A stretch of 64,000 nucleotides of DNA from Escherichia coli O127:H6 str. E2348/69 (GCF_000026545.1 NC_011601.1), one strand, 5' to 3'; shown: positions 55,362-56,566, counted from the first letter of the stretch. Made by a program: numbers and translations. Notes: generated by a model not told the origin, from the letters alone.

Positions 55362-55457
55362 ATGCTGGGTAATATGAATGTTTTTATGGCCGTACTGGGA
55401 ATAATTTTATTTTCTGGGTTTCTGGCCGCGTATTTCAGCCACAAATGGGATGACTAA
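55362..55457 (+). CDS. mgtS: small membrane protein MgtS/YneM (31 aa)
   Basis: Translates MLGNMNVFMAVLGIILFSGFLAAYFSHKWDD; RBS ggagg 6 nt upstream; below ORF-track cutoff. Confidence 0.85.
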   Translation: MLGNMNVFMAVLGIILFSGFLAAYFSHKWDD

Positions 55458-55532
55458 TGAACGGAGATAATCCCTCACCTAACCGGCCCCTTGTTACAGT
55501 TGTGTACAAGGGGCCTGATTTTTATGACGGCG

Positions 55533-55640
55533 AAAAAAAACCGCCAGTAAACCGGCGGTGAATGCTTGCATGGATAGATTTGTGTTTTGCTTTTACGCTA
55601 ACAGGCATTTTCCTGCACTGATAACGGATCGTTGACACAG
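55533..55640 (-). ncRNA. mgrR: PhoP-dependent small RNA MgrR (5' end approximate)
   Basis: Minus-strand terminator ccgccggt-tta-ctggcgg + T8 at 55533-55558; PhoP box ~25 bp upstream of the inferred start; known mgtS/dgcZ neighbourhood. Confidence 0.55.
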
Positions 55641-55663
55641 TAGCATCAGTTTTCTCAATGAAT

Positions 55664-55680
55664 GTTAAACGGAGCTTAAA
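55664..55680 (-). promoter_or_regulatory. PhoP box (GTTTAA-N5-GTTTAA direct repeat) of the mgrR promoter, overlapping the dgcZ stop codon
   Basis: Minus strand reads gtttaagctccgtttaa, matching (T/G)GTTTA-N5-(T/G)GTTTA. Confidence 0.55.
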
Positions 55681-56566
55681 CTCGGTTAATCACATTTTGT
55701 TCGTCAATAAACATGCAGCGATTCCTTCCGGTTTGCTTACCCTCATACATTGCCCTGTCCGCTCTTCCAATGACCACATCCAGAGGCTCTTCAGGAAATG
55801 CACGACTCACACCAGCAGTCACGGTAATGTTGATATGCCCTTCAGAATGTGTGATGGCATGGTTATCGACTAACTGGCAAATTCTGACACCTGCACGACA
55901 TGCTTCTTCATCATTAGTCGCTTTGACAATAATGATAAATTCTTCACCCCCGTAGCGATAAACCGTTTCGTAATCGCGCGTCCAACTGGCTAAGTAAGTT
56001 GCGAGGGTGCGTAATACTACATCGCCGATTAAATGCCCGTAGGTATCATTAACCAATTTAAATCGGTCTATATCCAACAACATTAAATAAAGATTCAGAG
56101 GTTCAGCATTGCGTAACTGATGATCGAAGGATTCATCAAGAACCCGACGACCCGGCAATCCCGTCAGAACATCCATATTGCTACGGACCGTAAGCAAATA
56201 AATTTTGTAATCGGTTAATGCCGCAGTAAAAGAAAGCAACCCTTCCTGAAAAGCGTCGAAATGCGCGTCCTGCCAGTGATTTTCAACAATAGCCAGCATT
56301 AATTCCCGACCACAGTTATGCATATGTTGATGGGCAGAATCCATTAGCCGAACGTAAGGTAATTCATCGTTATCGAGTGGCCCCAGATGATCAATCCACC
56401 GACCAAACTGGCACAGTCCATAAGAATGGTTATCCGTTATTTCTGGCTTACTGGCATCTCTCGCGACCACGCTGTGAAACATACTTACCAGCCACTGGTA
56501 GTGGGCATCGATAGCCTTATTGAGATTTAACAAGATGGCATCAATTTCCGTTGTCTTCTTGATCAT
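55676..56566 (-). CDS. dgcZ: zinc-regulated diguanylate cyclase DgcZ/YdeH (296 aa)
   Basis: ORF 55676..56572 trimmed to MIKKTTEIDAILLNLNKAIDAHYQW; GGDEF motif RYGGEEFIII. Confidence 0.9.
   Translation of the reverse strand: MIKKTTEIDAILLNLNKAIDAHYQWLVSMFHSVVARDASKPEITDNHSYGLCQFGRWIDHLGPLDNDELPYVRLMDSAHQHMHNCGRELMLAIVENHWQDAHFDAFQEGLLSFTAALTDYKIYLLTVRSNMDVLTGLPGRRVLDESFDHQLRNAEPLNLYLMLLDIDRFKLVNDTYGHLIGDVVLRTLATYLASWTRDYETVYRYGGEEFIIIVKATNDEEACRAGVRICQLVDNHAITHSEGHINITVTAGVSRAFPEEPLDVVIGRADRAMYEGKQTGRNRCMFIDEQNVINRV

What the first reader, a model, noticed from the sequence alone, without database searches (positions are those of the whole stretch)
55362..55691. mgtS and mgrR are convergent, and the mgrR PhoP box overlaps the dgcZ stop codon
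The 31-codon mgtS (plus strand) and the inferred mgrR sRNA (minus strand) face each other. The GTTTAA-N5-GTTTAA PhoP box that should drive mgrR (55664-55680) overlaps the last codons and stop of dgcZ. This ties Mg2+/PhoPQ signalling physically to the 3' end of a c-di-GMP synthase gene.
Basis: partly seen in the sequence, partly recalled or inferred. Interest (0 to 1): 0.25.

Follow-up and report, generated by a model that had tools for sequence, protein, structure and literature searches.

The report
Known mgtS–mgrR–dgcZ locus of E. coli
This is the well-studied E. coli low-magnesium locus, where the small-protein gene mgtS and the small RNA gene mgrR face each other; the mgrR PhoP site does sit on the dgcZ stop codon, but comparison with related bacteria suggests tight gene packing rather than a regulatory link.

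Summary
The window is identical to E. coli E2348/69 over 55150-55800 and carries ydeE, mgtS, mgtT, mgrR and dgcZ.

Transferring the K-12 annotation gives these positions:
- mgtS 55362-55457 (+)
- MgrR 55533-55630 (-), 98 nt
- dgcZ 55676-56566 (-)

It spans -51 to -35 of mgrR. Its upstream half is the last dgcZ codon GTT plus the stop TAA.

The convergent, PhoPQ-dependent arrangement is already published. Term-seq places the two main 3' ends 12-19 nt apart, each at its own terminator.

The stop-in-box overlap occurs only in E. coli and E. whittamii.
- E. albertii has an 11-nt insert.
- Citrobacter dgcZ homologues stop 15-26 nt or more upstream of the box.
- Three of the other species examined (C. 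braakii, C. amalonaticus, Salmonella arizonae) have no dgcZ there.
- 150 of 5416 E. coli records have lost the stop (TAA to TCA), so dgcZ reads through the whole box.

The overlap is therefore most likely incidental compaction. One untested consequence is that dgcZ has no terminator of its own and should read into mgrR.

This is known biology of low interest.

The parts
55261..55277 (+). Inferred PhoP box of the mgtS-mgtT promoter: AATTCA-GCCTT-CGTTTA. It lies 12 nt upstream of a TAATAT -10 hexamer.
   Evidence: Read from the sequence. The motif xGTTCA/AATTCA-N5-(C/T)GTTTA, the 12-nt spacing and a TA(A/C)TAT -10 are conserved in Escherichia and Citrobacter loci. PhoQ-dependent transcription of mgtS-mgtT is reported in PMC11429745. 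The TSS was not checked against published data.
55290..55295 (+). Inferred -10 hexamer TAATAT of the mgtS promoter. The TSS is expected near 55302.
   Evidence: Sequence and conservation. This is inference only.
55362..55457 (+). mgtS (yneM) CDS, 31 aa: MLGNMNVFMAVLGIILFSGFLAAYFSHKWDD.
   Evidence: ORF. Annotated as mgtS in E2348/69 and K-12. It is 81-100% identical across the loci where it was found.
55457..55561 (+). mgtT CDS, 34 aa. Its start overlaps the mgtS stop (ATGA). Its last 29 nt are antisense to the MgrR terminator.
   Evidence: ORF. Annotated as mgtT. Weaver et al. preprint and PMC11429745. A full-length ORF was found only in the E. coli-type loci; the tblastn match is also full-length in E. 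albertii, and E. whittamii has a 30-aa version. The ORF is variable or truncated in Citrobacter and Salmonella.
55485..55523 (+). mgtS intrinsic terminator: a 13-bp hairpin at 55485-55515 followed by UGAUUUUU. It lies inside the mgtT ORF. The Term-seq 3' end is at 55520.
   Evidence: Fold. Term-seq 3' end at K-12 1622804 (+) in Adams et al. 2021, supplementary file 1, which maps to window 55520.
55533..55630 (-). mgrR, the 98-nt Hfq-dependent sRNA MgrR. It has +1 G at 55630, a 5' hairpin, an invariant single-stranded seed and a terminator.
   Evidence: K-12 ncRNA b4698 mapped by identity. Rfam RF01407 at 281.9 bits. Fold of -25.9 kcal/mol, z = -2.9. A central stretch of about 37 nt is invariant in 14 distinct sequences, and both stems are kept.
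55533..55559 (-). MgrR intrinsic terminator: stem 55559-55540 and U8 tail 55540-55533. It is probably also the only terminator available to dgcZ.
   Evidence: Terminator scan. Term-seq 3' end at K-12 1622824 (-), which is window 55540. The annotated end is 55533. An RNase III-dependent site at K-12 1622816, window 55532, is reported in PMC5371410.
55637..55645 (-). Extended -10 of the mgrR promoter, TGcTACTGT, at -15..-7.
   Evidence: Sequence relative to the annotated +1. The motif GATG(C/A)TA is conserved at the same distance in the other genera. There is no sigma-70 -35 consensus, as expected for an activator-dependent promoter.
55665..55681 (-). PhoP box of mgrR, GTTTAA-GCTCC-GTTTAA, at -51..-35. 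In the literature register it is AGTTTA-AGCTC-CGTTTA at 55666-55682.
   Evidence: A unique exact match with 0.01 expected by chance. The proximal half-site is conserved in 19 loci. The consensus is quoted from PMC7667037. PhoP dependence of mgrR-lacZ is reported in PMC3536696.
55676..56566 (-). dgcZ (ydeH) CDS, a 296-aa diguanylate cyclase. The stop TAA at 55678..55676 and Val296 GTT at 55681..55679 form the distal PhoP half-site.
   Evidence: ORF. Annotation. tblastn.

Best explanation
This is the known E. coli low-Mg2+ locus ydeE / mgtS-mgtT / mgrR / dgcZ.

Anatomy. Two PhoP-activated transcription units converge. The mgtS-mgtT mRNA is on the + strand. Its PhoP box has the canonical 12-nt spacing to the -10, and its terminator hairpin lies inside mgtT. 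The 98-nt Hfq-dependent sRNA MgrR is on the - strand. Each unit stops at its own one-directional intrinsic terminator, so the main 3' ends lie 12-19 nt apart. Only read-through transcripts overlap as antisense; read-through is needed to translate full-length MgtT.

mgrR promoter. It consists of a PhoP direct repeat at -51..-35, one helical turn further upstream than the mgtS box, plus an extended -10 (TGcTACTGT).

The overlap. dgcZ, transcribed in the same direction as mgrR, ends only 45 nt before the mgrR +1. The distal PhoP half-site is therefore made of the last dgcZ codon and its stop (GTT TAA).

Shown here: the identities, coordinates, motif, terminators and comparative pattern. Taken from the literature: PhoP dependence.

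Inferred: the overlap is a by-product of intergenic compaction in the Escherichia lineage, not a device that couples Mg2+ sensing to c-di-GMP synthesis. Also inferred: dgcZ lacks a terminator of its own, so it reads through the mgrR promoter and ends at the MgrR terminator.
For: Identity and coordinates:
- The window is 100% identical to E2348/69 over 55150-55800, and matches are present in 5416 of 5426 complete E. coli genomes.
- Rfam RF01407 matches at 281.9 bits.

Box:
- There is a unique exact repeat with 0.01 expected by chance.
- The proximal half-site and its 79-82 nt distance to the MgrR core are conserved in 19 loci of Escherichia, Citrobacter and Salmonella arizonae.

Published arrangement and regulation:
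- Convergent PhoPQ-dependent transcription is stated in 10.1101/2021.06.30.450655.
- mgrR-lacZ and yneM-lacZ follow PhoP (PMC3536696).
- The mgtS-mgtT operon is PhoQ-dependent (PMC11429745).

3' ends:
- Term-seq places them at window 55520 (+) and 55540 (-).

Overlap is incidental:
- The stop lies inside the box only in E. coli and E. whittamii.
- In E. albertii an 11-nt insert puts the stop 7 nt upstream of the box.
- Citrobacter dgcZ homologues (57-65% aa identity) carry 10-16 extra codons and stop 15-26 nt, or 242 nt, upstream.
- C. braakii, C. amalonaticus and S. arizonae have no dgcZ there, yet keep the box.
- Stop-loss alleles exist: TAA to TCA in 150 of 5416 E. coli records and TAA to TTA in strain SCPM-O-B-8794.

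No dgcZ terminator:
- The terminator scan finds none between the stop and mgrR.
- The 70 nt from 25 nt upstream of the dgcZ stop to the mgrR +1 fold weakly (-12.9 kcal/mol, z = -1.9) and have no U-run.
- Term-seq supplementary file 1 assigns no 3' end to dgcZ.
Against: - The 46-nt stretch that includes the box and the dgcZ end is identical in 5037 of 5416 E. coli records. That is compatible with dual constraint, although it is also typical within-species conservation.
- The E. coli distal half-site (AGTTTA, 5 of 6) is closer to consensus than in Citrobacter (TAGTT(A/G), 3-4 of 6) or Salmonella arizonae (TGGTTG, 4 of 6). The fusion with the stop codon may therefore have improved the site rather than being neutral.
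- I could not read Moon & Gottesman 2009, so the TSS rests on the RefSeq annotation and promoter conservation.
- dgcZ read-through into mgrR is inferred from the absence of a terminator, not observed.
Confidence: 0.85

Rival explanations
1. The overlap is a functional cis-coupling. At low Mg2+, PhoP~P and RNA polymerase recruited to the mgrR promoter sit on the dgcZ stop codon. They block or truncate incoming dgcZ transcription, which could give non-stop mRNAs. PhoPQ activation would thereby lower DgcZ and c-di-GMP output.
For: The box covers Val296 and the stop. dgcZ and mgrR are co-directional with no terminator between them, so every dgcZ transcript must cross the PhoP site. The arrangement is nearly fixed in E. 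coli.
Against: The overlap is not conserved outside E. coli and E. whittamii. Citrobacter keeps dgcZ upstream of mgrR with the stop 15-26 nt, or 242 nt in two loci, before the box; an upstream position would not by itself prevent a roadblock, but it would leave the stop codon transcribed. Stop-loss alleles are tolerated. No held paper links PhoP or Mg2+ to dgcZ expression. Response-regulator dimers are generally weak roadblocks (general knowledge, not tested here).
Confidence: 0.08
2. MgrR is also a 3'UTR-type sRNA of dgcZ. dgcZ transcripts driven by CpxR and controlled by CsrA run to the MgrR terminator. They either act as MgrR-containing mRNAs or are processed to MgrR-like species, giving MgrR activity independent of PhoP. 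Conversely, dgcZ transcription could occlude the mgrR promoter.
For: There is no terminator between dgcZ and mgrR. Term-seq assigns no separate dgcZ 3' end, while the MgrR terminator is a very strong 3' end. The co-directional dgcZ-to-mgrR order is conserved in Escherichia and most Citrobacter loci. This resembles sRNAs such as MicL and DapZ, whose own promoters lie within or at the end of the upstream ORF (general knowledge).
Against: No transcript data for a dgcZ-mgrR co-transcript were found; the SMRT-Cappable-seq supplements have no entry for these genes. mgrR persists without dgcZ in C. braakii, C. amalonaticus and Salmonella arizonae. dgcZ is weakly expressed in standard conditions (literature knowledge).
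Confidence: 0.2
3. The GTTTAA repeat is a chance feature of the dgcZ 3' end, and the functional PhoP site of mgrR lies elsewhere.
For: In the published consensus register the site has two mismatches, and sites of that quality are as common as chance in this window. Its distance to the -10 (22-23 nt) is not the canonical 12 nt.
Against: The exact 17-mer pattern has 0.01 expected occurrences. The proximal CGTTTA(A/G) and the adjacent TTCATTG are conserved at a fixed distance in every genus examined, with or without dgcZ. No alternative repeat lies between -60 and -20.
Confidence: 0.03

Closest known systems
MgrR sRNA of E. coli K-12 (b4698; Rfam RF01407 STnc560) and its PhoP-dependent promoter
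   Same: The sequence differs from K-12 MgrR at one base (C versus T at +5). The strand, neighbours, terminator, seed and PhoP box are the same.
   Different: Nothing of substance differs. The Rfam model (214 nt, 55451-55664) is much longer than the 98-nt RNA. It runs from the promoter spacer through the mgtS terminator, so its ends are not the ends of the RNA.
mgtS (yneM)-mgtT operon of E. coli K-12
   Same: MgtS and MgtT are 100% identical, the start and stop overlap in the same ATGA, and the upstream PhoP-type promoter is the same.
   Different: None in this window. mgtT is not conserved beyond Escherichia.
sRNAs with their own promoter within or at the end of the upstream ORF that share the mRNA terminator (for example MicL in cutC, DapZ at dapB)
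   Same: mgrR is co-directional with dgcZ. Its promoter straddles the dgcZ stop, and no terminator separates the two.
   Different: The RNA itself starts 45 nt after the stop. It is found without dgcZ in other genera. It has always been treated as an intergenic sRNA, and co-transcription with dgcZ has not been shown.
Canonical PhoP-activated promoters (PhoP box replacing the -35, about 12 nt from the -10; for example the inferred mgtS promoter here)
   Same: A direct repeat of GTTTA cores 11 bp apart, in the direct orientation, with a weak or absent -35.
   Different: The mgrR box ends 22-23 nt upstream of the -10, one helical turn further than at mgtS. Both first positions are non-consensus (A and C instead of T/G).

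Membership tests
MgrR / Rfam RF01407 (STnc560) | Covariance-model score above the curated gathering score | tested here: met
   281.9 bits against 55, E = 2.8e-65, full model 1-214.
MgrR / Rfam RF01407 (STnc560) | Same sequence and coordinates as the annotated K-12 mgrR (98 nt) | tested here: met
   K-12 ncRNA b4698, 1622817-1622914 (-), maps to 55533-55630 (-). There is one substitution at +5.
MgrR / Rfam RF01407 (STnc560) | Hfq-type sRNA architecture: single-stranded seed plus a Rho-independent terminator with a U-tail | tested here: met
   Terminator with an 8-bp stem and U8. Fold. Invariant central seed and maintained stems in 14 sequences. Hfq binding itself cannot be tested here.
MgrR / Rfam RF01407 (STnc560) | PhoP/PhoQ-dependent, low-Mg2+-induced expression | not testable with these tools
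   Literature only: PMC3536696 and 10.1101/2021.06.30.450655.
PhoP box | Direct repeat (T/G)GTTTA-N5-(T/G)GTTTA with at most 2 mismatches (consensus as quoted in PMC7667037) | tested here: met
   AGTTTA-AGCTC-CGTTTA has 2 mismatches, both at the degenerate first position.
PhoP box | Located at the -35 region of the regulated promoter | tested here: inconclusive
   The box spans -51..-35 of the annotated +1. It abuts rather than replaces the -35 and ends 22-23 nt from the -10, against 12 nt at mgtS. Other distances are documented for PhoP.
PhoP box | Bound by PhoP and required for activation | not testable with these tools
   No footprint or ChIP data could be retrieved. Conservation of the proximal half-site is indirect support.
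MgtS (YneM) small protein | 31-aa hydrophobic protein identical or near-identical to K-12 MgtS, next to mgrR | tested here: met
   100% identity to K-12 MgtS.
DgcZ (YdeH) diguanylate cyclase | Full-length orthologue of K-12 DgcZ (296 aa) at the syntenic position | tested here: met
   99.3% aa identity to K-12 over 296 aa. Annotated as dgcZ. Domain content was not re-examined.

The most novel reading that the evidence does not exclude
In Escherichia, MgrR is structurally the 3'UTR of dgcZ. dgcZ has no terminator of its own, and the PhoP-dependent mgrR promoter straddles its stop codon. Two untested effects could follow. PhoP~P bound there at low Mg2+ could interfere with completion of dgcZ transcripts. 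Cpx-driven dgcZ read-through could yield MgrR-containing RNAs or occlude the mgrR promoter. Together these would give two-way cross-talk between Mg2+ and c-di-GMP signalling. The natural stop-loss alleles (TCA, TTA), which also alter the distal half-site, would then tune that cross-talk.
Probability: 0.12. Interest if true: 0.45.

Novelty: already known. Interest (0 to 1): 0.15.

Why it matters
The finding mostly confirms textbook annotation of a well-studied locus, and the convergent PhoPQ-dependent pair is published.

The practical point is for genetics. The last codon and stop of dgcZ are part of the mgrR PhoP box, and dgcZ has no terminator before mgrR. Three kinds of construct can therefore change MgrR expression:
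- dgcZ deletions that remove the 3' end.
- Resistance cassettes left in dgcZ.
- C-terminal tags on DgcZ.

MgrR controls eptB, pitA, rpoS and, in EPEC, grlRA. This matters for EPEC E2348/69, the strain this window matches, where both dgcZ and MgrR have been linked to LEE regulation.

If the natural stop-loss alleles change PhoP activation, they would be a ready-made test of dual coding and regulatory constraint.

Tried and rejected
Papers not held:
- Moon & Gottesman 2009 (PMC2841474), Yin et al. 2019 (PMC6351178), Wang et al. 2017 (PMC5465934), Moon et al. 2013 (PMC3765083) and Thomason et al. 2015 (PMC4288677) could not be read.
- The published TSS and any published drawing of the box could therefore not be checked directly. 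I relied on the RefSeq K-12 annotation instead.

Data sources that gave nothing:
- Full-length transcript data: the SMRT-Cappable-seq supplements contain no mgrR, ydeH, yneM or dgcZ entries.
- Low-Mg2+ RNA-seq supplements of PMC11429745 are not held.
- Literature searches for mgrR+PhoP+dgcZ, PhoP+ydeH and dgcZ+PhoP gave nothing relevant.
- The 2026 EPEC dgcZ paper does not mention PhoP, Mg2+ or mgtS.

Scans:
- The sigma-70 promoter scan finds nothing in 55150-55800. This is uninformative, because activator-dependent promoters lack a -35.
- The degenerate consensus search with 2 mismatches is not enriched, so it cannot by itself argue for function.

Rejected readings:
- Reading the Rfam hit boundaries (55451-55664) as the RNA ends. 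The model is a 214-nt Salmonella cDNA-derived region.
- The idea that mgtS mRNA and MgrR normally overlap as antisense. The Term-seq ends are 12-19 nt apart, so overlap needs read-through.

Not run: large protein and structure searches, because every protein here is an annotated orthologue.

Full report
**What is there**

The stretch 55150-55800 is 100% identical to E. coli O127:H6 E2348/69. It matches 5416 of 5426 complete E. coli genomes at 95% identity or more. RefSeq annotates it as ydeE, mgtS, mgtT and dgcZ. The K-12 record adds the ncRNA mgrR (b4698, 1622817-1622914, minus strand).

K-12 locus L002 maps to the window by adding 53715. The shared mgtS and dgcZ ends confirm this offset. The resulting coordinates are:

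| Feature | Window coordinates | Strand |
|---|---|---|
| mgtS | 55362-55457 | + |
| mgtT | 55457-55561 | + |
| mgrR (+1 = G at 55630) | 55533-55630 | - |
| dgcZ | 55676-56566 | - |
| dgcZ stop TAA | 55678..55676 | - |

An independent Rfam search gives RF01407 (STnc560, the MgrR family) at 55451-55664 (-). It scores 281.9 bits against a gathering score of 55. That model is a 214-nt region, longer than the RNA, so its ends are not transcript ends.

**Checking the observation**

The exact pattern GTTTAA-N5-GTTTAA occurs once in 64 kb, at 55665-55681 on the minus strand, with 0.01 expected by chance. Relative to the annotated +1, the repeat spans -51 to -35.

Its upstream half, GTTTAA, is the last dgcZ codon GTT (Val296) followed by the stop TAA. 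So the claim that the box overlaps the dgcZ stop is literally true.

The consensus quoted in PMC7667037 is (T/G)GTTTA-N5-(T/G)GTTTA. In that register the site reads AGTTTA-AGCTC-CGTTTA, with two mismatches at the degenerate first positions. Sites of that quality are no commoner than chance in this window (28 found, 20.6 expected). The argument for function therefore rests on position and conservation, not on the motif score.

**Promoter anatomy**

Upstream of the +1 lies TGcTACTGT at -15..-7 (55645-55637), an extended -10. There is no -35 consensus, which is usual for activator-dependent promoters. The box ends 22-23 nt from the -10.

The mgtS promoter looks different. AATTCA-GCCTT-CGTTTA (55261-55277) is followed after exactly 12 nt by TAATAT (55290-55295). 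This is inferred from the sequence and from conservation in Escherichia and Citrobacter. The mgrR box therefore sits one helical turn further upstream than the mgtS box.

**Convergence and the 3' ends**

[quoted passage not shown] It is also drawn in Weaver et al..

Each unit has its own one-directional intrinsic terminator.
- MgrR has an 8-bp GC-rich stem with a U8 tail at 55559-55533.
- mgtS has a 13-bp hairpin at 55485-55515 followed by UGAUUUUU.

Term-seq data (Adams et al. 2021, supplementary file 1) place 3' ends at K-12 1622804 (+), which is window 55520, and at 1622824 (-), which is window 55540. The annotated MgrR end is 55533. The main transcripts therefore end 12-19 nt apart and do not overlap.

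This 34-codon ORF starts in the mgtS stop (ATGA) and runs through the mgtS terminator. It ends at 55561, 29 nt into the antisense of the MgrR terminator. Full-length MgtT therefore needs terminator read-through, and only such read-through RNA is antisense to MgrR. An RNase III-dependent site reported at K-12 1622816 (window 55532), attributed to antisense transcripts, fits this picture (PMC5371410).

**MgrR itself**

The 98-nt RNA folds into three parts: a 5' hairpin, a long single-stranded segment and the terminator. In 14 distinct sequences from Escherichia, Citrobacter and Salmonella arizonae, the central stretch of about 37 nt is invariant. Both stems are maintained, mostly through one-sided changes.

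**Is the overlap with dgcZ meaningful?**

A scan of one genome per species with a 20-nt MgrR core gave 20 loci.
- 19 are enterobacterial loci with readable upstream sequence.
- One is a contig identical to E. coli K-12 inside a 'Caldithrix' MAG.

Searches show the following.
- **The box is conserved everywhere.** The proximal half-site (C/T)GTTTA(A/G) and the adjacent TTCATTG lie at a fixed 79-82 nt from the MgrR core in every locus, whether or not dgcZ is present.
- **dgcZ is not always the neighbour.** A dgcZ homologue lies directly upstream and co-directional in all Escherichia and most Citrobacter loci (57-65% aa identity). It is absent in C. braakii, C. amalonaticus and S. arizonae.
- **The stop lies inside the box only in two species.** These are E. 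coli and E. whittamii.
  - E. albertii has an 11-nt insertion, so GTTTAA(stop) lies 7 nt upstream of a weaker box.
  - Citrobacter homologues carry 10-16 extra C-terminal codons and stop (TGA) 15-26 nt before the box, or 242 nt in two loci.
- **The stop is dispensable.**
  - In strain SCPM-O-B-8794 it is TTA.
  - In 150 of 5416 E. coli records it is TCA.
  - In both cases DgcZ gains 7 residues and its ORF runs through the entire box to a TGA at -26..-24 of mgrR. RefSeq annotates this 303-aa form.

The canonical 46-mer around the box is identical in 5037 of 5416 records, which is ordinary within-species conservation. Taken together, the overlap is a derived, lineage-restricted result of a shortened dgcZ tail and spacer. 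It is most likely incidental compaction.

One point cuts the other way. The E. coli distal half-site (AGTTTA) is closer to consensus than the Citrobacter or Salmonella arizonae versions. The fusion may therefore have improved the site.

**Consequences that remain open**

No terminator lies between the dgcZ stop and the mgrR +1. The scan finds none. The 70 nt from 25 nt upstream of the dgcZ stop to the mgrR +1 fold weakly and have no U-run. The Term-seq table assigns no 3' end to dgcZ.

By inference, dgcZ transcripts cross the PhoP site and the mgrR promoter and end at the MgrR terminator. MgrR would then be formally part of the dgcZ 3'UTR. Three effects are all untested:
- interference by bound PhoP and RNA polymerase;
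- occlusion of the mgrR promoter by dgcZ transcription;
- MgrR-containing dgcZ mRNAs.

No held paper connects PhoP or Mg2+ with dgcZ, or mentions the overlap. I rate these readings as low-probability rivals.

**Verdict**

The elements are already known, and the stop-in-box detail follows from published coordinates.

Its practical value is a warning. dgcZ 3' deletions, cassettes or C-terminal tags can perturb mgrR. Interest is low (0.15).

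Noticed in passing
window 32107-32123 (-): This is the only perfect match in the window to the literature PhoP-box consensus: TGTTTAGTCGCTGTTTA, followed after 11-12 nt by CATAAT, which is the canonical PhoP promoter spacing. It lies about 275 bp upstream of a fimA-like major fimbrial subunit gene and a chaperone gene (E2348/69 H4J01_RS12385 and RS12390). It may be a PhoP-activated promoter for this fimbrial operon.
   Followed up: partly
window 55457-55561 (+): mgtT (34 aa) overlaps the mgtS stop (ATGA) and contains the mgtS terminator hairpin. The Term-seq mgtS 3' end (55520) falls at about codon 22, so full-length MgtT needs terminator read-through into the antisense of MgrR. 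A full-length ORF was found only in the E. coli-type loci; the tblastn match is also full-length in E. albertii, E. whittamii has a 30-aa version, and the ORF is variable or truncated in Citrobacter and Salmonella.
   Followed up: partly
L023 (E. coli 21AH126) 61-106; window equivalent 55677: A natural stop-loss allele of dgcZ (TAA to TCA) is present in 150 of 5416 complete E. coli records. It gives a 303-aa DgcZ whose ORF runs through the whole mgrR PhoP box and changes the distal half-site to AGTTTC. An independent TAA to TTA allele occurs in strain SCPM-O-B-8794 (L010).
   Followed up: partly
L004 (E. albertii) about 8745-8790: An 11-nt insertion, exactly one helical turn, separates the dgcZ stop (still GTTTAA) from the proximal mgrR half-site. 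This leaves three GTTT-type elements and a degenerate distal half-site.
   Followed up: no
L006 (SMXE01000224.1, 'Caldithrix sp.' MAG): Over the mgrR-mgtT-mgtS stretch this contig is identical to E. coli K-12, including the K-12-specific T at MgrR +5, and its ydeE product shows the same identity to the window as K-12's. It is almost certainly E. coli contamination binned into the MAG.
   Followed up: no
L018 (CAAEVH010000055.1, 'uncultured Raoultella sp.' MAG) versus L011 (C. braakii): The locus labelled Raoultella is nearly identical to Citrobacter braakii across mgrR and its flanks. This suggests a taxonomic mislabel.
   Followed up: no
L013 (C. amalonaticus S646): mgrR with its PhoP box is present, but neither mgtS downstream nor dgcZ upstream was found within the sequence held. 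The convergent pair is therefore not universal.
   Followed up: no
hit H7 (NZ_CP031215.1), homologous to window 55150-55800: One E. coli strain (Es_ST80_L1_NDM_10_2017) carries an IS200C insertion inside this 650-bp stretch. The match is split into two pieces, and the exact insertion point was not determined.
   Followed up: no
window about 56820-57030 (L001 3171-3379): Downstream of the dgcZ promoter region, E2348/69 has only pseudogene fragments (a ydeI remnant and a 2-oxo-tetronate isomerase remnant) before dcp. K-12 has intact ydeI and ydeJ there.
   Followed up: no
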